DNA of 32,000 nucleotides from Vibrio cholerae ATCC 14035 (GCF_000621645.1 NZ_JHXR01000010.1:116483-148482); one strand, 5' to 3'. Shown: positions 18,480 through 30,538, numbered from the stretch's first letter. Notes: generated by a model not told the origin, from the sequence alone. Numbers and translations are program-made.

Positions 18480-18739
18480 CCTTTCGCTTATTGTTCATAA
18501 AATCCACAGACATAGCGTTTTCACCCAAGCGGTTATCAAGGTTGCAACAAAAAATTCACCCCAAAAGCTAACTATTTCTTCCATCAGCAACATCAGGATA
18601 AAAATGTGACCAGAGTCAATGTTTAGTCATCAATCTTGGTTTGCAAGCGATTGCAATCTCATCATTGATGCTTATTATCGGAGGGCATTTATTTTAAATA
18701 ACGATAATTATTCTTAATAACTTTTAGAAGAGGATCACC

Positions 18740-20383
18740 ATGCGCCAGTTACTCAGCGGCTTGTCTATCAAGCTGCAGGTTGTAGTACCGGTATTTTTCA
18801 CTCTGTTGTTACTGATCATTGGCATTACCTTCAGTACCTCCAGCTTAAAAACCGCCTTCCACCAAGTTACCGTCTCTACTGAACAACTCATCACCGATAA
18901 AGATAATCTCACCACTCTGATTGATAACACGTATGCGATGCGCATCAGCGCCATTTATAGTCTGTTCCGTCCCGCTGAAGTGACCGCCCTTCCTAACGTT
19001 CTTAAAGAAAAACAAACCGAAAACTTGGCGCTCTTACGCAGCCTTGCGGATAATCCCGAACTGAAAAATGAAGTCGCAGGGCTTACACAAGCTATGCAGC
19101 GTTATGTGGATTACTCGATTCAAACCATGATCCCATTACTGAACATCGAACACAGTGACCAAGAGAAAGACGAGCGATTTACCGCCCAGTATGAACAGGC
19201 CACCGCAGAATATCGCAAGGTGGGCAATGAGATGATTAAAGCCATCGATGTGCTATCCAATCGCTTAAACCAAGTGGCTATGACGACCATTGATGAGAGT
19301 GAGCATGAGCACGATTCAGTCATGTCTCAATCCACGTTTGCTTTAATCGGTATTTTACTGGTCGCTGCGCTAAGTAGTTGGCTACTGGCGGGCATCATTG
19401 TCACCCCAATTCGTCAGTTGCAACAAACGGTACGTGAAATCGCAAAAGGTAATTTACTGGTTAAAGCCCAAGAAGAGGGCAATAACGAAATCACCCTTCT
19501 GGCCCGTGATGTCAACGCCACGGTGACTCAACTGCGCCAAACGGTAGAGAGCTTAGTGCGCATCAGTACCGATGTCGCTTCTGCCTCAACCGAATTAGCG
19601 ACGGTGATGACTCAAGCCAGTGTCAACTCCGATCAAGAGAAACAGGAAGTTGAACAAGTGGCTTCAGCCGTCAACCAGCTGCAAAGCACCGCACAAAGTG
19701 TGACTGATCATGCACACAGTGCGGATGGCGCAGCACAACAAGCCAACCAACTGGCATCTCAAAGCTTACGGATGTTTGAAGAGAGCCACCGCGCAACCGC
19801 GAAAATGGCTGACCAACTCAGAGAAGCCGCACAAGTGGTCAATCAACTGAAGGAGCAATCTGAACGCATTGGTAATGTAACAGAAGTGATCCGTAGTATT
19901 TCTGAGCAGACAAACCTTCTGGCACTGAATGCCGCGATTGAAGCGGCTCGCGCGGGAGAAAGCGGACGCGGATTTGCTGTAGTAGCCGATGAAGTGCGTA
20001 TGTTAGCCGCGCGTACACAGACCTCGACTCAAGAGATCCAAGCCATTATTGAAGAGCTGCAAAACCAATCCAATACCGCTAACAGCAGTATGCATTCAAG
20101 CTTAAGCCTGCTTGAGCAAAACCAATCTTTAGCAGCCAAAGTCAGTGCATCTCTCACTGAAATCAATCATTCGATCAGTGCCTTGGGTCAGATCAACGCG
20201 CAAGTGGCAACCGCTTCCGAAGAACAAAGCCAAGTGACCAAAGACATCAACCGCAACCTCAGCAATATTTATGAACTGGTTAGCCAAAATGTGACTGGCA
20301 TTACTCAATCAGCAGCAGCAAGCCATGAGCTGTCCGACCTTGCCGAGCAGCAACACCAGCAGCTCCAGTATTTTCGCGTGTAA
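18740..20383 (+). CDS. Methyl-accepting chemotaxis protein
   Basis: Two TM segments flank a periplasmic ligand-binding region of about 185 aa, followed by a HAMP domain. The highly conserved signalling hairpin is present ([38 protein letters not shown]). Confidence 0.9.
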
Positions 20384-20405
20384 ATGACTCGGTGCTCTTT
20401 ATGAC

Positions 20406-20445
20406 ATAAAAAAGGTCTGGCTAAGCCAGACCTTTGTCTTTTTCG
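20406..20445. terminator. Bidirectional terminator between the MCP gene and the end of the five-gene operon
   Basis: An 11-bp stem aaaggtctggc/gccagaccttt with an A-run upstream and a T-run downstream. Confidence 0.75.
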
Positions 20446-20516
20446 TGCCGCTTATTTTTAGAGCTAACACCACTGCCCTTCAAGCAAGATGGGGACAGCA
20501 GAAATAAGCATGCCTA

Positions 20517-21077
20517 TTACTCATCCGCCACAAGGAGCAACCCCATTTCATGAGCGTGAATCGAGTACGCATAAATCTCGCCGTTAATGGCATCCCACGT
20601 CCAAGCTTCTTCACGCTCAATACGCGTGGTATTACTCCATAAATAAGCGGCATAGTTGCCCACCTCGGTCACTAAGCCAGAGGCAAACGCCGTCTCATTC
20701 GCCGCTGGCGCAAAGCAGGCTTGTTCGGTCAAACTGCTTAGCTCTTTGATGTTTGGCATGCGCCACTGTTTAACACCCGCAAACTGGTGTAAACGGTGAC
20801 GGCTACCCGGGTGATTGATCGCTTGCACTTCTTGCAGTGCCGCTTGCCAGCGCAGAGGTTGCGCCTGTCCTGTACAACGTCCTTGCTCAGCATTCCACTC
20901 TTTGCCAAAGGTGCAGCGCATCCACGTTAACCCTGTGTGCAGGTCTTTTACTGTTCCTTGGGTGCTGTACACATAACGTAAGTTGGGTGCGGTGCGCATA
21001 ATATCACTTGCACACTCTTGCGCCATTACCGGTAAGCTCAACGCCAACAGAGTGGCCATAGTCGAGAGGGTTTTCAT
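20517..21077 (-). CDS. Exported DUF1566 (Lcl C-terminal, lectin-like) domain protein, 186 aa
   Basis: A signal peptide MKTLSTMATLLALSLPVMA. The DUF1566 hallmarks are present (DLHTGLTWMRC...; QWRMPNIKELSSL), along with several Cys residues. Its ATG overlaps the upstream stop (ATGA). Confidence 0.75.
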   Translation of the reverse strand: MKTLSTMATLLALSLPVMAQECASDIMRTAPNLRYVYSTQGTVKDLHTGLTWMRCTFGKEWNAEQGRCTGQAQPLRWQAALQEVQAINHPGSRHRLHQFAGVKQWRMPNIKELSSLTEQACFAPAANETAFASGLVTEVGNYAAYLWSNTTRIEREEAWTWDAINGEIYAYSIHAHEMGLLLVADE

Positions 21078-22516
21078 TCTTGATTCTCCACTGGGTTGGC
21101 AACCATACGCACTGGAAGCAGCAAGGAGCTACCCGAATCCGCTTCTTTATTCTGGTCATAGATTTCGATCACGCTGACTTCACCCTTAGCTAAGCCTAAG
21201 TGACTAATAAATCTGTAGGAGTGGGAGCCATTAGCCATTAATAACGAATAATTCATATAACTCACGGCAGAAGTCCAAGTATGGCCAGAGTAATCTTCGT
21301 TCTGGCTCTGCTGCGGAAAATAGCTCACGCTCAATGCCTGCGCCTCTTCGCCAGTCTCGCCAAAATCAAACAGGTTGAACAACTCTAGGCTGGTTGGTAA
21401 TCGCCAATGACGGATCCCACAACGCGCAGTTTGGTTTAGATGTGTAATGTATTGCGCCGTCGTACAGACTTCATCACCAGCACTATGGCAGGTGGCTTCT
21501 TCCACATCCTCAGCATAAGGACTAAAACGCCCAGGGATCTCAAGGGCAAACAGGCGTTCTTTGTGATTAAGCGAGGTCGTATCTGCACTTTTCACTTCCC
21601 ACACCAATCCGGTTACTTCATCGCGTACACAAGACCACTCACTTGCGCTGTCGCTCAGTGGGTTACCCGCCGCATCGAGTTTGCGCATCGTGAAGGCTGA
21701 CTTGCCCGATAGAGCATCACGACCATACTCGGCATCCTGCTCTGGATAATCACTGTTGGGGATATAACCGACAACACCCCCTTCTTCATAAAAAGTGACC
21801 AGCCCAGTATCGTTTAGCGGCACTTGGCGAGGAACGCGTTTCGCCAACTGTGTCACGTACTCCGTAAGCTGCACCTCACTCAAAGCGTTGTGGACTATGC
21901 CAGGATGTTCATCGCCAAAGGTTTGCGCCAAGGCGGCTAGCACTTGCGTGCGCTTTTCTGTGGCGATGAGTGGCAAAATCTCCAGCATATTGGCTTCAAG
22001 CTGGGCTAATGAATTTTGCGTAAATAGCGTCTGCAGATCCCGGGGAGCGGAGATGCCACGCTGTTCGAGCTGGGCGAGAAAGAGTTTAATTGCGTCGGCT
22101 TCGGTGTAACCAGCCACCATTAACGCCGCAAACAGGGTGCTCACACCGTTGATGAGTCGATCCCCCGCTCGGTTTAACCCCGGAGCGGCAAGCACAATAT
22201 TGGCTGAATCATTGTCTGCCGAGCGCGCAGCACTGGCACGGCTCACTTCAGCCAAAATAGGCAATGAATAGAGTGATTTATCCAAGCTTCTTAGCGTAAA
22301 ACGACCATTGCTGTCCGCTTGGGTGGTAAATTCGCCGCTATCACAAGTGAAGTTTTGGTTACGGTCTAAGCAGATTTTGCTGTTCAGTGCGACGTTTTGC
22401 GCGCTCAACGAGCCCGATAAAACGTATTCAGGCAGACTCGTCTCCAGCGCAGCATCTTCACCGCCACAACCAGCCATCAGTAGCGCCATACTGATCAAAG
22501 AGTAGTGATATTTCAT
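21074..22516 (-). CDS. Lipoprotein with a novel N-terminal region and a C-terminal DUF1566 domain, 480 aa
   Basis: A lipobox LLMAG-C (MKYHYSLISMALLMAGCGG). The C-terminus carries DEVTGLVWEVKS and HWRLPTSLELFNL. There are ATGA overlaps at both ends. Confidence 0.75.
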   Translation of the reverse strand: MKYHYSLISMALLMAGCGGEDAALETSLPEYVLSGSLSAQNVALNSKICLDRNQNFTCDSGEFTTQADSNGRFTLRSLDKSLYSLPILAEVSRASAARSADNDSANIVLAAPGLNRAGDRLINGVSTLFAALMVAGYTEADAIKLFLAQLEQRGISAPRDLQTLFTQNSLAQLEANMLEILPLIATEKRTQVLAALAQTFGDEHPGIVHNALSEVQLTEYVTQLAKRVPRQVPLNDTGLVTFYEEGGVVGYIPNSDYPEQDAEYGRDALSGKSAFTMRKLDAAGNPLSDSASEWSCVRDEVTGLVWEVKSADTTSLNHKERLFALEIPGRFSPYAEDVEEATCHSAGDEVCTTAQYITHLNQTARCGIRHWRLPTSLELFNLFDFGETGEEAQALSVSYFPQQSQNEDYSGHTWTSAVSYMNYSLLMANGSHSYRFISHLGLAKGEVSVIEIYDQNKEADSGSSLLLPVRMVANPVENQE

Positions 22517-24819
22517 GATTGAGTCCCCTTGTTAGCCCAACGACGACGAGAGAAAGCGCTCAGCAGAAGCAGCAAGCCTAAAGTGAGAGAACCACTGCCC
22601 GCCGCGACGTCTTCTTCACTATTGGTCGTGCTTGTTTGATCTTTGACTTCTTTATCACAGGTGTAGTGGGTCACTTCACCGACTCCCCATAAATGTAAAG
22701 TACCCACATTGCCCACGACATTATCGAGGATCTCCAAGCGCCAATTGCCATCTAACCGTTCACCGCGTAGCACTTGCAGCGCCTTTTGATGCGCTAATAC
22801 CCAATAGTCATCCAGCTGCGCAACCGGCGTGGTTTGGTTATTGAGGATCTCAACTCGGGTACCTTGTGGGGAAATCAAGGTGATACGCAAATCCTGCATA
22901 TTGCTGTGGCTAAGTTTCACGCGCAGCGCAAAATCATCGCCCACGATGCGTGCGGCGCCTTCCACAAAGAAGTTGTAGCTTTTAAAACCTGAAGCGAGTT
23001 TGCCATCACTGCTCAACTGCGCATCACGCAAGGTTGAGTTCAAGGTCGTAAAGGTTTGTGCCATCTTAGGAAGACCAAACACGACAGGTAACTCCGCCTG
23101 CCAAGTTTGCTGGCCTAAGAAGTGGGCATACTGGTAGTTAAAATCGACCTTAACCGAGGTCGCTACACCACATTGGTAATCGGTTGGTGCAGGCAATCGC
23201 CACACCACATTAGCCAGATTGTCTTGGCTAAAAGTATGAGTTTGCCCAGCCATCACCACCGTGGCTTGCGTCGTTGCCGAGCGCTCTGTCGCGTTGACGT
23301 AAAGGTTTTGAGTTGCGAGCGGGTCAAGGTACTTTTTAGCAAACGCCGCTTGGAACGGTGCTTGCAGCAAACCGTGATGCTGCAAATTGCGCTGTAAGAT
23401 CAGCTTATAGTCTTTATCTGGATACAGTGCGTTGGCCACATACAGCATGTTTTGTGCAAGGTCGTGCATCAATACCCCACGCCCTACGCCAAACATGGAC
23501 TCCAACACTACAGTGTTGAACTCATCAAAGGCGCTGACCCCATATTGCTCAACCGCCTGCTTCAAGCTTTGAAACAAAGGGGTCGACCAGAGTTCATCAC
23601 CTAAATGACCCGCTTCACGCTCATGGGCACGATAATCCCCTGCAGAGTAATAACGCGCCGCGAGGTTAGCCAAACTGCGAGTGGAAATTGTGGTTCCAAA
23701 ATAACCATCCCAGTTGAACAGGGTGTCAATTTCAAACGCTTTGCCTTGTTCATACTGGTTACGGTAGCTGTGCGCTCCCGCCCAATAGTCGCCAAACCCT
23801 TCGCCTAACGCGCCAGTATGGCCGTACGCCCAGTCCGGAACCATGTGGTAGTGAATAGCATGACCAAGTTCATGCCAGATGATATCGGCATCCAGCGCAT
23901 CGTGAGAGACGCCTTCACCAAATAAAATGACATTAGGGCCCACATAGTATGAGGAGTTGTTGGTTGAGAGCGCGGCGGCATCAAACAGTACTGGTTCGAT
24001 GCCTGAGCCATCGGCTTTATTGAACAGGTCATAACCGAGCGAATTCAAATAGCGTAGCGAATTATCCAGATGCGCAAACGCCATGATCTGTTTAAAACCG
24101 TCATCTTCCATTTTTACGGCTTGTAACTCAGCGATCGAACTCCAGCTCATGATGACGCTATCAGCAGGTGCAAGGGAAACACCACTCTCAACATAGGTAC
24201 TGCTATTTGCTTCTTTTTCTAAGATGGCTTGTGCATCGACCATCTTTACCCGCTCGTTAGCAAGATAATAGCGGCCACCCGATTGCAACAATGACACTTC
24301 GGTTCGTACATACTGCGCAGGGTTGGGATAATCCTCTATTGTTGCCCAAGGCGTCGCAGGGGCCGCCAACCCATCCATGGTGCGCAAGTCAGGGTCAAAA
24401 ATCGAAACGTCAACGTTAATCGGGCTCCCCGTCGTTAATTCAGGCGGTTGAAGAGCGGTTAAACGCTGTGGGGCAACCAATTCAGCGGCGACACTCGGCA
24501 CGCCGTTAACCAGCACGGTATCATTGAGGCTTTTAAACACTCGAGTGACATTGCCCTGCTTATCGGTAGAGATAACCACCGTTTTTTGTGCCTGCACTTC
24601 ACCATTTTGGGTCAAGTCAAAATTGTAATGGGTACCAAGCAGGCTGGTTTTGCGATAATGCAGTGCTGGCTGGCCCACTTGTGGATAGTACTTTTCGACA
24701 AACGCCAGTGCCTGCGCCTCGTTCAGCACTTTATCGCTGGTGGCCGGATAATCCCACTGCGCCGCTGAGGCTAAAGGGGCTAATAGACTGGCTATAATTA
24801 AGGTCAACGTTGATTTCAT
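22513..24819 (-). CDS. Secreted zinc metalloprotease: signal peptide, FTP/PepSY-like propeptide, HEXXH...E catalytic domain, proprotein-convertase P-domain, GlyGly-CTERM tail
   Basis: A signal peptide MKSTLTLIIASLLAPLASA. The zinc motif HELGH is at nt 23860-23874, with a downstream GEGFGDYWA. A P-domain-like segment is present (DLRITLISPQGTRVEIL...GNWRLEILDN..GNVGTLHLWGV). The C-terminal AAGSGSLTLGLLLLLSAFSRRRW lies at nt 22537-22605. Confidence 0.85.
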   Translation of the reverse strand: MKSTLTLIIASLLAPLASAAQWDYPATSDKVLNEAQALAFVEKYYPQVGQPALHYRKTSLLGTHYNFDLTQNGEVQAQKTVVISTDKQGNVTRVFKSLNDTVLVNGVPSVAAELVAPQRLTALQPPELTTGSPINVDVSIFDPDLRTMDGLAAPATPWATIEDYPNPAQYVRTEVSLLQSGGRYYLANERVKMVDAQAILEKEANSSTYVESGVSLAPADSVIMSWSSIAELQAVKMEDDGFKQIMAFAHLDNSLRYLNSLGYDLFNKADGSGIEPVLFDAAALSTNNSSYYVGPNVILFGEGVSHDALDADIIWHELGHAIHYHMVPDWAYGHTGALGEGFGDYWAGAHSYRNQYEQGKAFEIDTLFNWDGYFGTTISTRSLANLAARYYSAGDYRAHEREAGHLGDELWSTPLFQSLKQAVEQYGVSAFDEFNTVVLESMFGVGRGVLMHDLAQNMLYVANALYPDKDYKLILQRNLQHHGLLQAPFQAAFAKKYLDPLATQNLYVNATERSATTQATVVMAGQTHTFSQDNLANVVWRLPAPTDYQCGVATSVKVDFNYQYAHFLGQQTWQAELPVVFGLPKMAQTFTTLNSTLRDAQLSSDGKLASGFKSYNFFVEGAARIVGDDFALRVKLSHSNMQDLRITLISPQGTRVEILNNQTTPVAQLDDYWVLAHQKALQVLRGERLDGNWRLEILDNVVGNVGTLHLWGVGEVTHYTCDKEVKDQTSTTNSEEDVAAGSGSLTLGLLLLLSAFSRRRWANKGTQS

Positions 24820-24828
24820 CTTAAATTC

Positions 24829-26970
24829 CTAGAACACATACTTAGCGTGCACGGTGAAATAGCGTCCCGGCTCCGTGGAATAGAGGGTGTCACTTGGCGT
24901 CACACCAGCGACATCTTGATAGCGCGTGTATTCTCGATCGAGCAGGTTAACCACGTTGAAACTGGCACTCAGCTGTGCGTTCCATTGGTAGTTGAGGCCG
25001 ATGTCCCAACTCACCCAACCTGTGGTCGTGGCACATTCAGTTTCTTTGCCTTGCTCTGTGGTGCAAGTCGGCACTCGGCTCATGGCACTCGCCCAGTTCA
25101 GGCGGCTGTAAGCGTCCCATCGCTCTCTTTGGTAGTTGAGCTGCACACTCCCTTCTAGTGGGGTTAAGGTGCGCACGTATTGGTTTTCACCATCTTTACC
25201 ATCCACGTATCCGAGCTTATTTTCGACACTCCAACGATCATCTAGACGATGCATTACCGACATTTCAGCCCCGTAGGTTTTGACGCCCGCGATATTTTGG
25301 TACTGCTGAATCACCGACCCTGTGGCGTTGTCATAACCGACTTGTTTGACATCAATAAAGTTATCGAAGATGGAATAAAACACGGCCACGTAAAATTGCG
25401 TCTGACCATTGTCGTATTTGCTGCCCAACTCGAAACTGTCGCTGGTTTCAGCGCGTAACTTATTGTTGGGCTTGATAATAAATGGCGTTAGCGGGACAAA
25501 ACTGTGATCGCTTGCGCCATACGCTTTGTCATAACTTGGCGCACGGAAGCCGTGGTTGTAGCTCAGGTAAGTATTCCATTCTGGATGCCATTGATAAGAG
25601 ATTGAGGCACTGGGTGACCACTCACTGCTCCCCATGGTCACCACTTTGTAGCCATGAATACGATCGGTATTTTTAGGGCTCAATTTTTGCGCATCAAAAC
25701 GCAAACCCGCAGCCAGCGTCCAATCGCCTAAGAGGAGATTGTCTTGTCCGTAGACGCCAAAACGGTACTCACGCGCAGGAGCAAACGGCTCATCGGCTTG
25801 TAAATCGTCACCTGAAGATTCCATCCGTCGAATCGATTTCGGACGCTGGTAATCATGACCATCAACGCTCATACCGTAAGCAAACTGATGCAGCCACTCA
25901 CCTTGTTGCCACTCTTTTTGCGCATTGAGCGTGGCTCCTAACGCCTCATCATTGAACCCTTCATCACGCAGTTCACGACGATAGGAGAGGATGCCAGCGC
26001 CAGACCGATCATTCGCCATCAAACGGTTCGTCTGTGTGATGTTTTCTGTACTGCGCCAGTAGAATTTTCCTTCCAGCGTATCCATCCAACTTAGATTAGC
26101 CGTGTAATCGGCACCAACGCTGGCCAGACGCGTTTGGCTGCGTTGATACTCGTAAAAGCTGACCAGATCCCACTTGTCATCTTTTTGGATAGAAGAGGTG
26201 CCTTCGCGACGCTTGGCATAATCATCAAAATACTCTAAGTGCGTTTTTAAACGCAGCGCATCGTTTAACCAATAATGATGGGAGAACCCAAGGTTGTAAC
26301 CATCCACTTCGCGGTTATACAGATCTTGATTAAAGTTACGTGTCTCTTCACCTTGCCAGTAGTCGATCGTGAGCAGCGCCTCGCCATCACCGTGACGCAT
26401 GGCTAACGCGTGGTTACCTTGGTAGCGGTTGCTGATGCCTGAGTAGGTCAATGCGGCATCCACGTAATAATCACGGTGGTACAAATAATCTTCCGGCGCT
26501 TTACTTTCGATGATCACGACGCCACCAATCGCACCAGAACCGTATAGGGTTGAACTCGCGCCCTTCACCACTTGGATCTGTTTCACATTGCTCAGGCTAA
26601 ATGTGTTACGGCCATACTTGTCGTTAATATCTGCAGCGCCATAACCATCCGCACTTTGAATGCCATCACGAACAATCGCTATCCGGTTGCCGGTCATGCC
26701 ACGAATCGTAATATTTTGTGGGCGTCCCGCTCCGCCAGTCACGCTGACACCCGGCTCTTGATTCAATGCATCGTACAACTCGGTCTTGCCTTGCTTTTCA
26801 AGGGTTTCCCCTTCAAGCACTGCCACTGAGCCCGCCACTTCTGACAAAGGCTGCTCAATGCGATTGGCCGTCACCACCACTTCTTCGTAGTGGCTAGGCT
26901 CAGTTTCGGCATGAGCGAACCCTGCCGCGAGTACGCTAAGTACCGCAGCTGATACTGGAGAAAGCTTCAT
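24829..26970 (-). CDS. hutR: TonB-dependent outer-membrane receptor of the heme-receptor class
   Basis: A signal peptide, a TonB box (EEVVVTA), a plug domain and a C-terminal aromatic residue (KYVF). The heme-receptor signature FRAP-(10 aa)-H-(10 aa)-PNNKL (an NPNL-box variant) is at nt 25456-25548. The symbol comes from memory of the V. cholerae ptrB-hutR locus. Confidence 0.8.
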   Translation of the reverse strand: MKLSPVSAAVLSVLAAGFAHAETEPSHYEEVVVTANRIEQPLSEVAGSVAVLEGETLEKQGKTELYDALNQEPGVSVTGGAGRPQNITIRGMTGNRIAIVRDGIQSADGYGAADINDKYGRNTFSLSNVKQIQVVKGASSTLYGSGAIGGVVIIESKAPEDYLYHRDYYVDAALTYSGISNRYQGNHALAMRHGDGEALLTIDYWQGEETRNFNQDLYNREVDGYNLGFSHHYWLNDALRLKTHLEYFDDYAKRREGTSSIQKDDKWDLVSFYEYQRSQTRLASVGADYTANLSWMDTLEGKFYWRSTENITQTNRLMANDRSGAGILSYRRELRDEGFNDEALGATLNAQKEWQQGEWLHQFAYGMSVDGHDYQRPKSIRRMESSGDDLQADEPFAPAREYRFGVYGQDNLLLGDWTLAAGLRFDAQKLSPKNTDRIHGYKVVTMGSSEWSPSASISYQWHPEWNTYLSYNHGFRAPSYDKAYGASDHSFVPLTPFIIKPNNKLRAETSDSFELGSKYDNGQTQFYVAVFYSIFDNFIDVKQVGYDNATGSVIQQYQNIAGVKTYGAEMSVMHRLDDRWSVENKLGYVDGKDGENQYVRTLTPLEGSVQLNYQRERWDAYSRLNWASAMSRVPTCTTEQGKETECATTTGWVSWDIGLNYQWNAQLSASFNVVNLLDREYTRYQDVAGVTPSDTLYSTEPGRYFTVHAKYVF

Positions 26971-28967
26971 TACTGCCCCGCTTTTCTGGTTTTATCTAAG
27001 GTGAGAAAGAACGCATATTCACGCGCCTGCTTTTCAAGCGCTTGACGCCGATCACTGGCGTGACCCGCCTGAAAATCGGTTGATAAAAGGTAAGGACCAG
27101 CCCCTTGTGAGACATCACTCAAACGTGCCAAATAGCGAGCCCCTTCCCAATAGGGCACTCGATTGTCCCACCAACCGACATTAACCAACGTCGGAGGGTA
27201 AGGAGCAGCACGTAGATTGCTGAATGGATCATAAGCTTGCATCACTTGACGCTGCTCTGGCTGTTGAGGATTACCCCATTCTTGATACTGCTGCGCCGTC
27301 AAGGCTTGACTGGTATCACTCATACTGGCTAACACATCGACAAACGGCACTTGCAGCACAGCTCCCGCAAATAGGTTGGGCTGCTGATTGAGCGCCGCAG
27401 CAACCAAGGTGCCGCCGGCACTTCCGCCGATCGCATAAATGGCGCGCTCACCTTGCTGAAAATGGGTGAGATATCGAGCGGCCGCGAGGAAATCATCAAT
27501 GCCGTTTTGTTTATTGAGTCCAGCGCCAGCTTGATACCAAGCCTCGCCAAGGTATCCACCACCACGAACATGAGCGATCGCGTAAATCATGCCTCGATCA
27601 AGCAAACTGACCATTTGTGGCATGAAATAGGGCTTCATCGTCACGCCATAAGCGCCATAGCCATACAGCACCACACTGCTGTTGGGGGTCAGTTTGTCAG
27701 AGCGGTAGGCCAGTGTCACCGGAACTTGGATGGCACCTTGCGTCACCCATACCGTTTGGGTTTGATACTGTTTCGGGTCAAAGTCTGCGTAGTGATCTTG
27801 GCTTAACTGTTGCCACTGTAACTGTGCCACATCCAACTCATGCCAGCTAGCAGGCTCCGTCATTGACATTGCACGTACACGCAGCCGATTACTGGCAGCA
27901 TCACCATTGCGAGAGATCCACGCCACTTGACCTAAATCGCGCAGTTCAAAGTGAGTACGCACTTCGCCTTGGCTATCGAGAACCCAAACTTTCGGTGCAA
28001 GAGTTTGGTTCTCCACCAACACAATCCCAGCATCAAACAGATAAAAGTTGCTCAGTGAGCCGATTTCTTTATGTGTTGTGACGCTTTGCCATTCCTGTTT
28101 AGTGTGTAACGGCTGACGATAGAGACGAAATGCCCCCTCATGGTTGCTATTGATGTAAAGTGTCTCACCCAGCACATCGGCATAATATTCCAGCCCCAGC
28201 TCAGTGGTGCGTAGCCATGGCATCAGCTCACCGGTTTGGGTATCCAGCAGGCGCTGCTGAGTCGAGTTTTCATTATTTTGCTGTACCACGATATAGCGTG
28301 GATTGCTTGCAGAATAGAGCGAGAACAGCCACTCTGCCGAGCGCCACTCTGCAAGCCTCGTTGATTGACCCGTTTCTAGCTCAAAACGCTGCAGCTGGGT
28401 AGACCCATTGAGATCAGATAAGTAGTAGAGGCTTTTGCCATCGGCCGCCCAAGCAAAGTAAGTGCTCGCTGTTTCTGAAACGATCTGCTCGGTGCGATCG
28501 GCTAAACGCACGATCGTCAGCTTAAACTGCTCGTCACCCCGCGTATCTTCTGCCAACGCTACCGATTGGACTGAGCGATCAAGTGACCAAGAAGCCAATT
28601 GGTAATAATCAAACGGCTCTGCACGCGCGCTAAGATTCAGCAGAGGCTCAATTTGGCCTTGAGCACCTATCTTGACGATGTGCCGATGACCATTCCATTG
28701 AATATCGTTGTACTGCTGGTTTGCGTAGATAAGCGCAGGCGGAGGCGCTTTATGCTGTGAAGTTTGTTGCCATTCATTGACCAACTCTTGCACCAGTGGC
28801 TTGGCAGGTGCAAACCAATGATCGGTTTTTCGATTATGCTCAGCCAAAAACTGCTTCACCGCAGGTTCCGAACGCGAGTCATCGCGTAACCATTGATAAT
28901 CCGTCTCTGCATAAGTATAAAAAACCGACAGAGATGTCGTTAACAGCAATACATTGAGCAGTTTCAT
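26970..28967 (-). CDS. ptrB: Oligopeptidase B / protease II (S9A prolyl-oligopeptidase family) with an N-terminal signal peptide
   Basis: The N-terminal propeller region begins YQWLRDDSRSEPAVKQFLAEHN, as in PtrB. The catalytic serine motif GGSAGG and a C-terminal His region (FQAGHA) are present. The first 21 residues, MKLLNVLLLTTSLSVFYTYA-E, look like a Sec signal. Confidence 0.9.
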   Translation of the reverse strand: MKLLNVLLLTTSLSVFYTYAETDYQWLRDDSRSEPAVKQFLAEHNRKTDHWFAPAKPLVQELVNEWQQTSQHKAPPPALIYANQQYNDIQWNGHRHIVKIGAQGQIEPLLNLSARAEPFDYYQLASWSLDRSVQSVALAEDTRGDEQFKLTIVRLADRTEQIVSETASTYFAWAADGKSLYYLSDLNGSTQLQRFELETGQSTRLAEWRSAEWLFSLYSASNPRYIVVQQNNENSTQQRLLDTQTGELMPWLRTTELGLEYYADVLGETLYINSNHEGAFRLYRQPLHTKQEWQSVTTHKEIGSLSNFYLFDAGIVLVENQTLAPKVWVLDSQGEVRTHFELRDLGQVAWISRNGDAASNRLRVRAMSMTEPASWHELDVAQLQWQQLSQDHYADFDPKQYQTQTVWVTQGAIQVPVTLAYRSDKLTPNSSVVLYGYGAYGVTMKPYFMPQMVSLLDRGMIYAIAHVRGGGYLGEAWYQAGAGLNKQNGIDDFLAAARYLTHFQQGERAIYAIGGSAGGTLVAAALNQQPNLFAGAVLQVPFVDVLASMSDTSQALTAQQYQEWGNPQQPEQRQVMQAYDPFSNLRAAPYPPTLVNVGWWDNRVPYWEGARYLARLSDVSQGAGPYLLSTDFQAGHASDRRQALEKQAREYAFFLTLDKTRKAGQ

Positions 28968-29023
28968 CGAAAATGTGACAACTATAACAAATAAAAATCG
29001 GTCGCCACTCTAACATAAATCTA

Positions 29024-29042
29024 AATAAGATCAATTATCATT
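29024..29042. promoter_or_regulatory. Candidate Fur box upstream of ptrB
   Basis: aataagatcaattatcatt matches AATGATAATNATTATCATT at 14 of 18 specified positions, including a perfect ATTATCATT half. It overlaps a candidate minus-strand -35/-10 (TTGATC-16 nt-TAGAGT), about 60-75 nt upstream of the ATG at 28967. Confidence 0.55.
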
Positions 29043-29107
29043 TGTATTATTTTAGAGCAAAAATTCTATTCCTTGATATACACCACGAAACCCCATTTAT
29101 TGGGCAT

Positions 29108-29136
29108 AAAAAAACCGCCCTTCACAGACGGTTTCT
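29108..29136 (-). terminator. Rho-independent terminator of the DEAD-box helicase gene
   Basis: The minus strand reads aaaccgtc-(loop)-ggcggttt followed by additional T residues (a T7 run in total), about 45 nt after the stop codon. Confidence 0.6.
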
Positions 29137-29179
29137 TGATTGAAAATCAGCAGTTGCACACTAAGTTGTACAGCATGGC

Positions 29180-30538
29180 TTAGTCGATGTCGTCTTCCAG
29201 ATCCACTTCTGGCTTAGGCGCGACTTTCTTTTTCGGGATAAAGACCGAGTCACCCACTGCCACATTTTGGTAGAAGCTCTTGTCACGCGGCGCCGCTTTT
29301 TTCGATTTGCTTGGCGCTTTCGCTTTGTTGACCCGCTGAGTTGGCGCGGCTTTAGGCTTCGCTTGACGCGGTTTCAACCCTTTAAACTTACCTTCTAAAC
29401 CAGCTAAAACCTCAAATTGGATCTCTTGCTGTAAAAAAGCTTCCACTCGCTTAAAACTCTCCCAGTCCTTTGGCCCAACAAGAGACATGGCATCCCCTTT
29501 ATTTCCGGCACGACCAGTACGACCAACACGGTGAACATACTCTTCGGTATGCTTTGGCATATCAAAGTTGATCACGTGAGTCACCGCGGGAATATCAAGG
29601 CCACGTGAAGCGACATCCGTCGTCACGAGAATCTTAAATACCGCACGCTCAAATTGCCCCATGATGGTGTTACGCTGCGTTTGATTGAGGTTACCACTGA
29701 GCGCAACTGCTTTGAGGTTGTTTTTATTGAGCTTCTCAGTCAGGCGATCGGTATCGGCACGCGTTGCTGTAAAGATGATTACTTGACGGTACTCAGCATC
29801 GGCCAAGATACGATCGAGCAGCGCTTCCTTGTGATCTAGATGGTCACACAAGTAGAAATGCTGAGTAATGTCTTTGTGCTCTTCGCTACCCACCCCGATC
29901 GCGATACGTTTCGGTTCATTAAGTAGCTCCATAGCCATATCATTCACATCTGCATGATCTAATGTGGCAGAGAACATCAAGGTTTGGCGACGACGGTGCT
30001 TTGCCGCGTTATGGATACGGCGCAGCTCTTTGGCAAAGCCTAAATCCAACATACGATCCGCTTCATCCAGCACTAGCGTTTCTAGGCCTTCCAAAAAGAG
30101 TGAACGGTGGTCAAGATGATCGGCTAAACGTCCGGGTGTCGCGACAATAAAGCGAGGTCCACGCGCTAACGCTTTCACTTGGTCATTAAAGTTTTCACCA
30201 CCCGTGATCAAGGTTGCCGTATAACTTAAACCACCCAACATGGAGCGCAGCTCACCATACACCTGCTTTGCCAACTCACGGGTTGGAACCAAAATCAAGC
30301 CACGTGGATCTTTAGCTGAAAAGGCTTTGGTTTTTAAAGATTTATGCAGCATAGGCAGCACGAATGCCAACGTTTTGCCCGAACCTGTCTTAGATGAGGC
30401 CAACAAATCACGTCCCGCAATCGTGAGCGGTATCGCCTGTTGTTGGATCTCAGTCGCTTGTTTGAAATTGTAATGCGCTAGATTTTTCAATAAGCGATTA
30501 TCTAAGCCTAAATCTTTGAATTGCAAAGTACTCTCCAT
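29180..30538 (-). CDS. DEAD-box ATP-dependent RNA helicase with a lysine-rich C-terminal tail
   Basis: The Q motif is present (FKQATEIQQQAIP), as are motif I SKTGSGKT, PTRELA, motif II VLDEADRMLD, motif III SAT and motif VI HRVGRTGRAG. The basic tail reads KPRQAKPKAAPTQRVNKAKAPSKSKK. Confidence 0.9.
   Translation of the reverse strand: MESTLQFKDLGLDNRLLKNLAHYNFKQATEIQQQAIPLTIAGRDLLASSKTGSGKTLAFVLPMLHKSLKTKAFSAKDPRGLILVPTRELAKQVYGELRSMLGGLSYTATLITGGENFNDQVKALARGPRFIVATPGRLADHLDHRSLFLEGLETLVLDEADRMLDLGFAKELRRIHNAAKHRRRQTLMFSATLDHADVNDMAMELLNEPKRIAIGVGSEEHKDITQHFYLCDHLDHKEALLDRILADAEYRQVIIFTATRADTDRLTEKLNKNNLKAVALSGNLNQTQRNTIMGQFERAVFKILVTTDVASRGLDIPAVTHVINFDMPKHTEEYVHRVGRTGRAGNKGDAMSLVGPKDWESFKRVEAFLQQEIQFEVLAGLEGKFKGLKPRQAKPKAAPTQRVNKAKAPSKSKKAAPRDKSFYQNVAVGDSVFIPKKKVAPKPEVDLEDDID

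What the first reader, a model, noticed from the sequence alone, without database searches (positions are those of the whole stretch)
20517..29042. Fur-box-fronted, translationally coupled five-gene operon linking two peptidases, a heme-type TonB receptor and two DUF1566 lectin-like proteins
Seen in the sequence:
- The five minus-strand genes leave no room for internal promoters.
- The ptrB stop and the receptor start share TAATG (26968-26972).
- The receptor TAG is 9 nt from the protease ATG, with AGGA in between.
- The next two junctions are ATGA overlaps (22513-22516 and 21074-21077).
- The only substantial non-coding DNA is upstream of ptrB. It carries a 14/18 match to the Fur consensus, overlapping a plausible promoter.
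- The first strong terminator is at 20406-20445.

Established knowledge: FRAP/NPNL-type receptors import heme, and from memory ptrB-hutR is an iron-regulated heme-receptor locus in V. cholerae. I am not aware of any functional description of the three downstream genes or of the five genes as a unit.

Inference: this is an iron-starvation module. A surface-tethered or secreted metalloprotease would degrade host hemoproteins. A lectin-like lipoprotein and its small partner would capture the substrate next to the TonB gate. An exported oligopeptidase B would process imported or periplasmic peptides.
Basis: partly seen in the sequence, partly recalled or inferred. Interest (0 to 1): 0.78.

Follow-up and report, generated by a model that had tools for sequence, protein, structure and literature searches.

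The report
Known Fur-regulated hutR heme-receptor operon
This is the already described iron-repressed ptrB-hutR operon of Vibrio cholerae chromosome II: its heme receptor is understood, but the three conserved downstream genes (a secreted zinc protease and two lectin-like proteins) still have no demonstrated job.

Summary
Five tightly packed minus-strand genes (20517-28967) lie between a Fur-box promoter and a strong terminator.

The window is Vibrio cholerae, and the genes are VCA0063-VCA0067 (ptrB, hutR, VCA0065, VCA0066, VCA0067).

The five-gene unit is not new. In V. vulnificus, RT-PCR across all junctions showed that ptrB-hvtA-VV2_1550-1552 is one transcript. That transcript is iron- and Fur-regulated, and its Fur box is homologous to the one here (PMC6813434). 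In V. parahaemolyticus, all five orthologues are listed in the Fur regulon and change expression together (PMC12341060). VCA0065 is a known GlyGly-CTERM, rhombosortase-dependent secreted metalloprotease.

New here:
- The receptor-protease-DUF1566-DUF1566 order is kept in all 27 species-level loci that carry a full-length protease orthologue, across Vibrionaceae, Agarivorans, Shewanella and Psychrobium, plus Ferrimonas from a separate lookup.
- The Fur box is the only conserved block in the upstream DNA.
- The operon's PtrB always has a signal peptide and lacks the acidic pair seen in Serratia oligopeptidase B.

It is weakened by one result: V. vulnificus lacking hupA but keeping this operon grows on hemin and not on hemoglobin.

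Verdict: real, ordinary at the operon level, already known. What the three distal genes do remains an open question.

The parts
29024..29042 (-). Fur box (AATGATAATTGATCTTATT). The conserved block extends to about 29019-29045.
   Evidence: Scores 14/18 against AATGATAATNATTATCATT, and 0.8% of shuffled intergenic regions reach that score. The same block, AAATGATAATTGATCTCATT, lies 71-80 nt (99-141 nt in some Photobacterium and one Vibrio locus) upstream of the ptrB ATG in most orthologous loci, and is the only conserved island in that upstream DNA. It is homologous to the published V. vulnificus hvtA Fur box GTAAATGATAATTGATGT.
29007..29034 (-). Putative sigma-70 promoter: -35 TTGATC (29029-29034), 16-nt spacer, extended -10 TGT-TAGAGT (-10 at 29007-29012). 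The Fur box covers the -35 and the spacer.
   Evidence: Read from the sequence. It scores 8/12, below the scanner threshold used. The -10 aligns with a conserved yAGAAT in other genera. The transcription start has not been mapped.
26970..28967 (-). ptrB (VCA0063): exported S9A serine peptidase related to oligopeptidase B.
   Evidence: Peptidase_S9 and Peptidase_S9_N domains. The best solved relative is Serratia oligopeptidase B, E 9e-94. The catalytic GGSAGG motif is present. An N-terminal signal peptide is conserved in all 19 orthologues read. QQYQEWGNP stands where Serratia has GEYDEWGNP.
24829..26970 (-). hutR (VCA0064): TonB-dependent outer-membrane heme receptor.
   Evidence: TIGR01785 scores 640 bits against a cut-off of 317. 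Plug and barrel domains are present. It has a FRAP box, an invariant His, a PNNKL motif and a C-terminal Phe. The published AphA ChIP motif inside VCA0064 matches 25876-25895 exactly.
22513..24819 (-). VCA0065: secreted thermolysin-fold zinc endopeptidase with an N-terminal beta-rich region, a P-domain and a GlyGly-CTERM tail.
   Evidence: 99% identical to the V. cholerae protein cluster. H316-E317-x-x-H320 and E340 are invariant in 14 orthologues. AF2 model has pLDDT 83.7. Foldseek matches thermolysin and M36 proteases at E about 1e-6 (TM 0.62-0.66 on thermolysin, about 0.46 on M36) and furin for the P-domain. Pfam P_proprotein E 7e-18. The tail AAGSGSLTLGLLLLLSAFSRRRW has TIGR03501 as its best hit. 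Published work shows rhombosortase dependence.
21074..22516 (-). VCA0066: outer-membrane lipoprotein with an unassigned N-terminal region (about residues 27-230) and a C-terminal Lcl_C/DUF1566 domain.
   Evidence: The lipobox L-x-G-C-G-G is invariant in 10 orthologues. Pfam Lcl_C scores 49.8 bits against a cut-off of 34.9. The N-terminal region was found only in orthologues from this cassette. The AF2 model is poor (pLDDT 54) and gave no fold match.
20517..21077 (-). VCA0067: small exported single-domain Lcl_C/DUF1566 protein.
   Evidence: Pfam Lcl_C scores 89.5 bits. A signal-peptide-like N-terminus, MKTLSTMATLLALSLPVMA-QE, is visible. It is always the last gene of the cassette. It is only remotely similar to the DUF1566 domain of VCA0066.
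20411..20435 (.). Bidirectional intrinsic terminator shared with the convergent chemoreceptor gene.
   Evidence: An 11-bp stem with 6 G-C pairs and T-runs on both strands. dG -19.8 kcal/mol, z -5.2.

Best explanation
This is the Fur-repressed ptrB-hutR-VCA0065-VCA0066-VCA0067 operon of Vibrio cholerae chromosome II. It is the orthologue of the V. vulnificus hvtA operon.

How it is controlled. With enough iron, Fe-Fur sits on a box that covers the -35 and spacer of the single promoter upstream of ptrB. When iron is scarce, one mRNA is made. Overlapping or near-abutting stop and start codons couple the five reading frames. The transcript ends at the hairpin at 20411-20435.

Where the products go. 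All five are envelope or extracellular proteins:
- a periplasmic S9 oligopeptidase;
- the TonB-dependent heme receptor HutR;
- a thermolysin-fold zinc endopeptidase handled through its GlyGly-CTERM tail by rhombosortase and found in culture supernatant;
- an outer-membrane lipoprotein with a lectin-like DUF1566 domain;
- a small soluble DUF1566 protein.

Shown, here or in print: the identity of the locus, the operon structure, the Fur control, hemin import by HutR/HvtA, and rhombosortase-dependent secretion of VCA0065.

Inferred, my probability about 0.35: the strictly conserved receptor-protease-DUF1566-DUF1566 core is a bind-and-cut arm. It frees heme, or heme-carrying fragments, from a protein-bound source other than vertebrate hemoglobin and feeds the receptor. 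The exported PtrB clears peptides in the periplasm.
For: Gene content, junctions and terminator.

Species and locus: with the paper read.

Orthology to the characterised operons: the V. vulnificus and V. parahaemolyticus loci have the same five genes and the same flanks, a DEAD-box helicase upstream and a convergent chemoreceptor downstream. The published Fur box lies 65-82 nt before the V. vulnificus ptrB.

Experiments in relatives:
- RT-PCR across all junctions, and loss of iron regulation in a fur mutant (PMC6813434).
- All five V. parahaemolyticus genes are in the Fur regulon table, with fold changes of 20.7, 11.9, 5.1, 3.6 and 2.8 along the operon (PMC12341060).
- A hutA hutR mutant is defective on heme (PMC12607845).

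Conservation:
- All 27 species-level loci with a full-length protease orthologue keep the order receptor-protease-lipoprotein-small protein. None of 51 remote paralogue loci has any of the partner genes. Lookups of individual homologues agree.
- Fur-box footprint.
- The heme-type FRAP/His/PNxxL signature is kept in every cassette receptor I aligned, down to 28% identity.

Export signals. Protease fold and invariant HExxH plus Glu. Secretion and rhombosortase dependence of VCA0065.
Against: Against the inferred arm:
- V. vulnificus venB hupA strains keep the whole operon yet cannot use hemoglobin.
- HvtA is a minor receptor and not a virulence determinant.
- The only DUF1566 domain with a known ligand binds glycosaminoglycans, not protein or heme.
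- VCA0065 is found in supernatants of ordinary cultures and is cited as RpoH-regulated. It may therefore be expressed, or act, independently of iron.

Against strict single-promoter control:
- An AphA ChIP site lies inside hutR.
- Induction falls about 7-fold from the first gene to the last in V. parahaemolyticus.

No co-transcription or Fur-binding data for V. cholerae itself could be read here.
Confidence: 0.8

Rival explanations
1. This is a machine for host hemoproteins: the surface or secreted metalloprotease degrades hemoglobin and other host hemoproteins, the lipoprotein and its small partner hold the substrate at the HutR gate, and PtrB processes the resulting peptides.
For: All components are exported and co-regulated by iron. 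Linkage with a heme-type receptor is strictly conserved. The protease is an endopeptidase of the thermolysin fold found outside the cell.
Against: V. vulnificus lacking hupA but keeping this operon does not grow on hemoglobin, and the authors conclude that HvtA mediates hemin uptake only. The cassette is widespread in free-living marine genera such as Shewanella benthica, Psychrobium, Ferrimonas and Agarivorans, which are not vertebrate pathogens. hvtA is dispensable for virulence.
Confidence: 0.12
2. Co-regulated but functionally separate. Iron starvation signals a host or a particle surface, and the distal genes serve adhesion (lectin-like proteins) and general protein scavenging. They are unrelated to what HutR imports.
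For: Known DUF1566 proteins are adhesins: Lcl binds glycosaminoglycans, and Leptospira Lsa25 binds extracellular matrix. NCBIfam gives a weak Lsa25 hit for VCA0067. VCA0065 appears in supernatants without deliberate iron limitation, and only in T6SS-inactive strains in one secretome study.
Against: The receptor-protease-DUF1566-DUF1566 order is invariant over two bacterial orders, while the flanking genes differ and ptrB is sometimes lost. That pattern normally marks proteins that work together. Gene spacing stays tight in distant genera.
Confidence: 0.25
3. Not one unit in V. cholerae. VCA0065-67 have their own promoter or promoters inside hutR, for example RpoH- or AphA-dependent, so the five genes are only partly co-expressed.
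For: VCA0065 is cited as RpoH-regulated. An AphA ChIP peak lies inside hutR at window 25876-25895. VCA0065 is abundant in supernatants of standard cultures. Induction decays along the operon in V. parahaemolyticus.
Against: No sigma-32-like match was found anywhere on the minus strand of 20400-29200, and no sigma-70-like match (9/12 or better) within 400 nt upstream of any internal start. RT-PCR products span every junction in V. vulnificus. All five genes move in the same direction in two V. parahaemolyticus RNA-seq contrasts. Consensus scans are weak evidence either way.
Confidence: 0.15

Closest known systems
V. vulnificus hvtA operon (ptrB VV2_1548, hvtA VV2_1549, VV2_1550-1552; Datta & Kenton 2019, PMC6813434)
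   Same: The same five genes in the same order, with the same flanking helicase and chemoreceptor. The Fur box is homologous and at the same distance from ptrB. The protease is 42% identical.
   Different: A different species. Co-transcription, Fur dependence and temperature effects were measured there, not in this strain. The V. cholerae box reads ...GATCTTATT where most genera have ...GATCTCATT.
   Same: This is that locus. HutR is one of three V. cholerae heme receptors. As I recall the abstract, hutR is co-transcribed with ptrB from an iron-repressed promoter.
   Different: As I recall it, that description stopped at two genes. The three downstream genes were not treated as part of the unit.
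GlyGly-CTERM / rhombosortase substrates of V. cholerae (VesA, VesB, VesC, Xds, VC1485, VCA0065)
   Same: VCA0065 is a listed member. It has the tripartite Gly/Ser-rich, hydrophobic, basic tail. Its level in supernatant falls 5.4-fold in an rssP mutant.
   Different: It was not detected in membrane fractions, unlike VesA and VC1485. Its V. cholerae tail (GSGS) scores below the TIGR03501 cut-off, whereas the A. fischeri orthologue passes. It is the only listed member encoded in an iron-regulated receptor operon.
Sus-like polysaccharide utilisation loci of Bacteroidota
   Same: The logic is the same: a TonB-dependent transporter, a surface lipoprotein with a binding domain, a surface-tethered endo-hydrolase and a periplasmic exo- or oligo-hydrolase, all in one regulated operon.
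   Different: No homology. The enzymes are proteases rather than glycosidases. There is no SusD. The receptor is heme-type. This is an analogy only and is untested.
Two-component heme or iron receptors with a lipoprotein partner (HpuAB, TbpAB), and protease-assisted heme capture (E. coli Hbp, P. gingivalis gingipains with HmuY); named from general knowledge
   Same: A receptor gene sits next to a lipoprotein gene, and a protease is thought to free heme.
   Different: No sequence or fold relationship was found for VCA0066. Hemoglobin is not used through the V. vulnificus orthologue.
Legionella Lcl C-terminal domain (DUF1566/Lcl_C; PMC11162425)
   Same: The same Pfam domain is found in VCA0066 and VCA0067. 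It has a C-type-lectin-like fold, and Lcl is a type II secretion substrate.
   Different: There is no collagen-like stalk. Conserved cysteines are present here, whereas Lcl has none. The ligand is unknown.

Membership tests
hutR/hvtA Fur-regulated operon of Vibrio | Gene content and order: S9 peptidase, heme receptor, P-domain protease, DUF1566 lipoprotein, small DUF1566 protein | tested here: met
   The V. vulnificus and V. parahaemolyticus loci are identical in order and in flanking genes.
hutR/hvtA Fur-regulated operon of Vibrio | Fur box in the promoter upstream of ptrB | tested here: met
   Scores 14/18 at 29024-29042. Homologous to the published V. vulnificus box. Conserved across genera.
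hutR/hvtA Fur-regulated operon of Vibrio | Co-transcription of all five genes, and derepression by low iron or loss of fur | not testable with these tools
   Shown in V. vulnificus and consistent with V. parahaemolyticus RNA-seq. Not measured for this strain.
TonB-dependent heme receptors | Family HMM above the curated cut-off, with plug and barrel domains | tested here: met
   TIGR01785 scores 640.1 against 316.85. PF07715 and PF00593 are present.
TonB-dependent heme receptors | FRAP box, conserved His and NPNL box; C-terminal Phe | tested here: met
   FRAP at residue 475, then SDH, then PNNKL (a degenerate NPNL), ending ...KYVF. The pattern is kept in 12 cassette-linked receptors.
GlyGly-CTERM / rhombosortase substrates | C-terminal Gly/Ser motif, then a hydrophobic helix, then a basic cluster, recognised by TIGR03501 | tested here: inconclusive
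   The tripartite tail is present and conserved. The V. cholerae tail scores 12.7 against a cut-off of 15.5 but TIGR03501 is its top hit. The A. fischeri orthologue scores 30.1.
GlyGly-CTERM / rhombosortase substrates | Dependence on rhombosortase RssP | not testable with these tools
   Published: the wild-type to rssP ratio in supernatant is 5.4 and 2.8.
Thermolysin-like (M4) / fungalysin (M36) gluzincins | HExxH plus a downstream Glu as the third zinc ligand, in a thermolysin fold | tested here: met
   H316, E317, H320 and E340 are invariant. Foldseek matches thermolysin at E 1.6e-6 (TM 0.62-0.66 on the target) and M36 proteases at E about 3e-6.
Thermolysin-like (M4) / fungalysin (M36) gluzincins | Family HMM above the Pfam gathering score | tested here: not met
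   Peptidase_M36 scores 22.8 against 23.3, and there is no M4 hit. No NCBIfam family matches. No PDB relative is found by sequence for the catalytic part beyond E 0.011. It is best called a divergent thermolysin-fold family.
Oligopeptidase B (PtrB/OpdB, S9A) | S9 catalytic domain plus N-terminal propeller, and a GxSxGG nucleophile | tested here: met
   The closest solved structures are oligopeptidases B.
Oligopeptidase B (PtrB/OpdB, S9A) | Equivalog-level similarity to E. coli-type OpdB | tested here: not met
   NF007511 scores 339 against a cut-off of 1313.
Oligopeptidase B (PtrB/OpdB, S9A) | The acidic pair before EWGNP that sets specificity for basic residues (E576/E578 in Salmonella OpdB; their role is recalled from memory) | tested here: not met
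   QQYQEWGNP stands here where Serratia has GEYDEWGNP. The first position is Q in 16 of 20 sequences, counting the window, and E in four Photobacterium. The second position is never acidic in any of the 20.
Lcl_C / DUF1566 | Pfam PF07603 above the gathering score | tested here: met
   49.8 and 89.5 bits against a cut-off of 34.9.

The most novel reading that the evidence does not exclude
The conserved four-gene core (heme-type TonB receptor, rhombosortase-handled thermolysin-fold protease, DUF1566 lipoprotein, small DUF1566 protein), with the exported S9 peptidase, is a Sus-like 'hemoprotein utilisation locus' of marine Gammaproteobacteria. In this reading, lectin-like proteins on the surface hold a glycosylated or particle-bound non-vertebrate hemoprotein, such as invertebrate extracellular hemoglobins or algal and detrital cytochromes. 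The tethered protease cuts it. HutR imports heme or short heme-peptides. Periplasmic PtrB, whose specificity pocket differs from that of classical OpdB, trims them.
Probability: 0.15. Interest if true: 0.7.

Novelty: already known. Interest (0 to 1): 0.3.

Why it matters
At the operon level nothing changes. This is a published secondary heme-uptake locus of Vibrio.

What remains open is why three exported proteins of unknown role have stayed attached to a heme receptor across two bacterial orders. The three are a rhombosortase-handled zinc protease and two lectin-like proteins. An answer would:
- give a physiological substrate to one of the six V. cholerae GlyGly-CTERM proteins;
- give a first function to DUF1566 proteins outside adhesion;
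- possibly show which protein-bound heme sources marine vibrios use in the sea, where hemoglobin is not the relevant source.

Tried and rejected
Searches that found nothing:
- Scan of viral contigs for the protease: no relatives.
- Sequence searches of the PDB with the protease and with the small DUF1566 protein: no hits. A profile search recovered only the P-domain and a marginal match around HExxH.
- Pfam at E up to 10 on the protease N-terminal region, its middle beta domain and the lipoprotein N-terminal region: only noise.
- Rfam over the whole window: nothing.
- Literature searches for VCA0066 and VCA0067: no paper.

Structure work that failed or was blocked:
- AF2 model of the lipoprotein: pLDDT 54, with the Lcl_C half unfolded. 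Foldseek against the PDB gave nothing below E 0.02.

Promoter scans:
- Sigma-32-like sites were sought across the whole operon and sigma-70-like sites within 400 nt upstream of each start. None reached threshold.
- The scanner's only minus-strand promoter hit (28943-28914) lies inside the ptrB coding sequence, and I take it to be chance.

Papers I could not read: Mey & Payne 2001, Mey et al. 2005, Davies et al. 2011, Slamti et al. 2007 and Payne et al. 2016. Statements about V. cholerae ptrB-hutR co-transcription therefore rest on my memory and on citations in PMC6813434.

Labels rejected:
- PtrB as a canonical oligopeptidase B.
- The protease as a bona fide M36 member.
- The two DUF1566 genes as a recent duplication.
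Full report
**1. What is in the sequence**

- 26970-28967: 665 aa, with Peptidase_S9 and its N-terminal propeller
- 24829-26970: 713 aa, with the plug and barrel of a TonB-dependent receptor
- 22513-24819: 768 aa, with a P-domain and a sub-threshold M36 match
- 21074-22516: 480 aa, with an Lcl_C/DUF1566 domain
- 20517-21077: 186 aa, with an Lcl_C/DUF1566 domain

The junctions are as described: TAATG is shared; TAG is followed by 9 nt and then ATG; and there are two ATGA overlaps.

A DEAD-box helicase gene lies upstream. It ends with its own hairpin and T-run at about 29109-29137. A convergent chemoreceptor gene lies downstream and shares the strong bidirectional terminator at 20411-20435.

The only sizeable non-coding stretch is the 212-bp, 34% GC region upstream of ptrB.

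**2. The Fur box and promoter**

The '14/18' score is reproduced against the palindromic consensus AATGATAATNATTATCATT at 29024-29042. Only one other site in the 32-kb window scores as high. Just 0.8% of shuffled copies of the intergenic region reach that score.

Against the classical 19-mer the match is 11-12 of 19. That is about the 63% reported for the V. vulnificus site.

The promoter is weak by consensus: TTGATC, 16 nt, then TGT-TAGAGT, or 8 of 12. The scanner did not report it. The Fur box covers its -35 and spacer.

**3. Which organism and locus**

- The protease is 99% identical to a V. cholerae protein cluster with 1,916 member sequences.
- A 20-nt AphA ChIP-seq motif published as lying inside VCA0064 (hutR) matches 25876-25895 exactly.
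- The 768-aa (about 84-kDa) gluzincin with a GlyGly-CTERM tail fits published descriptions of VCA0065.

The five genes are therefore VCA0063 to VCA0067 of chromosome II.

**4. Prior art**

In V. vulnificus CMCP6, RT-PCR with primer pairs across every junction showed that ptrB (VV2_1548), hvtA (VV2_1549) and VV2_1550-1552 are co-transcribed. The upstream helicase gene is not part of the transcript. hvtA is induced by iron limitation, and that regulation is lost in a fur mutant. The authors pointed to the Fur box GTAAATGATAATTGATGT (PMC6813434).

I fetched the V. vulnificus locus. It has the same five genes and the same flanks, and that exact box lies 65-82 nt upstream of ptrB. The window has ACAAATGATAATTGATCT at the same place.

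In V. parahaemolyticus, an RNA-seq table lists all five orthologues under the Fur regulon. Their fold changes are 20.7, 11.9, 5.1, 3.6 and 2.8 in one contrast and -10.5 to -2.4 in another. The five genes move together, with a 5'-to-3' decline (PMC12341060). The locus was confirmed.

VCA0065 is one of six V. cholerae GlyGly-CTERM proteins. It is found in culture supernatant, and its level there falls 5.4-fold and 2.8-fold in a rhombosortase mutant in two studies. HutR is an accepted heme receptor.

**5. What the comparisons add**

*Synteny.* A scan of one genome per species with a profile of the protease returned 79 loci. I searched them with the five window proteins.
- All 27 loci with a full-length orthologue (30-47% identity) keep the order receptor-protease-lipoprotein-small protein. 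They come from Vibrio, Aliivibrio, Photobacterium, Agarivorans, Shewanella benthica and a Psychrobium MAG.
- None of 51 loci with remote paralogues has any of the partner genes. These are at most about 30% identical or match only in part, and come from Bdellovibrionota, Pleionea and others.
- Lookups of individual homologues gave the same picture in Ferrimonas, Agarivorans, Shewanella sp. C32 and Photobacterium. The flanking genes were unrelated and the gaps between genes were mostly under 20 nt. A 28%-identical paralogue had no linkage.
- ptrB is present in 24 of the 27 loci, cannot be judged in 2 where the contig ends, and is absent in the two Shewanella loci.

The conserved core is therefore four genes, with ptrB as a frequent fifth.

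*Fur-box footprint.* In most of these loci the block AAATGATAATTGATCTCATT lies 71-80 nt upstream of the ptrB start (99-141 nt in some Photobacterium and one Vibrio locus). It is the only alignable island in otherwise unrelated upstream DNA. In Shewanella, which lacks ptrB, a box scoring 15-16 of 18 sits upstream of the receptor gene instead.

*Receptor signature.* Every cassette-linked receptor I aligned keeps the FRAP-type box, the invariant His and a PNxxL box, down to 28% identity.

**6. The individual proteins**

*PtrB.* Its closest solved relatives are oligopeptidases B (Serratia, E 9e-94). Three things set it apart:
- It fails the NCBIfam equivalog cut-off, 339 against 1313.
- All 19 orthologues read, and the window protein, begin with a hydrophobic signal peptide ending in an Ala-x-Ala-type site just before the conserved WLRDD. 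This replaces the first ~21 residues of the Serratia enzyme.
- Where Serratia has G-E-Y-D-EWGNP, the operon-linked proteins have Q-Q-Y/H-x-EWGNP. From memory, that acidic pair sets the preference of OpdB for basic residues. If so, this periplasmic enzyme has a different specificity.

*VCA0065.*
- Invariant H316-E317-x-x-H320 and E340.
- A confident AF2 model, pLDDT 83.7 and pTM 0.81.
- The catalytic part matches thermolysin and fungalysin, and residues about 625-715 match the furin/kexin P-domain.
- Its tail has the Gly/Ser-rich, hydrophobic, basic pattern. The V. cholerae tail scores just under the TIGR03501 cut-off, and the A. fischeri orthologue scores well above it.

*VCA0066.*
- An invariant lipobox, with Gly at position +2.
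- A C-terminal Lcl_C domain.
- An N-terminal region found only in cassette orthologues.
- Its model was poor and gave no fold match.

*VCA0067.* It is a signal peptide followed by one Lcl_C domain. It is only remotely like the domain in VCA0066, so the pair is not a recent duplication.

The Lcl_C fold is C-type-lectin-like. Its one characterised ligand is sulphated glycosaminoglycan.

**7. How it most likely works**

Shown, here or in print:
- Fur represses a single promoter.
- One coupled mRNA yields five exported proteins.
- HutR imports hemin using TonB.
- VCA0065 leaves the cell in a rhombosortase-dependent way.

Inferred: the invariant linkage of protease and lectin-like proteins to a receptor that keeps its heme signature suggests they work on the receptor's substrate outside the cell, and that PtrB works on what reaches the periplasm. 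I put this at about 0.35.

V. vulnificus venB hupA mutants retain the whole operon. They grow on hemin but not on hemoglobin, and the authors conclude that HvtA mediates hemin uptake only.

The cassette is also common in free-living marine bacteria that do not infect vertebrates. If there is a protein-bound substrate, it is probably not vertebrate hemoglobin.

Three rivals remain open:
- The distal genes are co-regulated adhesion or scavenging functions unrelated to HutR.
- VCA0065-67 are partly expressed on their own. Supporting hints are the RpoH citation, the AphA site inside hutR, and the presence of VCA0065 in standard cultures.
- The locus works as a Sus-like import route for heme-peptides.

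**8. Verdict**

The mechanistic inference is untested and partly contradicted.

Novelty: already known. The residual interest lies in the unknown role of the three distal genes and the unusual exported PtrB.

Noticed in passing
window 18697-18721, upstream of the chemoreceptor gene at 18740-20383 (+): This is the only other site in the window that scores 14/18 to the Fur consensus (AACGATAATTATTCTTAAT), and it lies 20-40 nt before the chemoreceptor start. The orthologous chemoreceptor genes next to the cassette in V. vulnificus (L087) and V. parahaemolyticus (L088) also carry sites scoring 15/18 and 14/18, 15-50 nt upstream. Photobacterium (L005) does not. The neighbouring chemoreceptor may be Fur-regulated as well.
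   Followed up: partly
window 25876-25895 (-), inside hutR: An exact match to the AphA ChIP-seq motif GGCTGCATCAGTTTGCTTAC reported inside VCA0064. This is an intragenic binding site for a quorum-sensing regulator, about 1.06 kb upstream of the VCA0065 start. Its effect on the distal genes is unknown.
   Followed up: partly
window 26970-28967 (PtrB residues about 560-572) and orthologues in L002-L040: The operon-linked PtrB family carries a signal peptide. It has Q-Q-Y/H-x-EWGNP where Serratia oligopeptidase B has G-E-Y-D-EWGNP. This suggests a periplasmic S9A peptidase with altered substrate specificity.
   Followed up: partly
L003 13740-18293 (Agarivorans sp., downstream of the cassette): A Tn7-like gene set (TnsA-like, a Mu-type transposase, TniB and TniQ) lies just beyond the cassette, after a Mg-chelatase-like gene.
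   Followed up: no
L025 (1,859-bp contig labelled as a Patescibacteria MAG): It encodes a fragment 46% identical to the protease, followed by the start of the DUF1566 lipoprotein. This is almost certainly a Vibrionaceae-type contig mis-binned into a Patescibacteria genome.
   Followed up: no
PMC12341060 Table 1 (V. parahaemolyticus VP_RS22185 to VP_RS22165): Induction falls steadily along the operon (20.7, 11.9, 5.1, 3.6, 2.8-fold). This points to polarity, partial internal termination or differential mRNA decay. No internal terminator stands out in the V. cholerae sequence.
   Followed up: no
window 28914-28943 (-): The scanner's only minus-strand sigma-70-like hit (TTAACG, 18 nt, TATACT; 9/12) lies inside the first 55 nt of the ptrB coding sequence, next to a small hairpin with a T-run at 28926-28939. 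It is probably chance.
   Followed up: no
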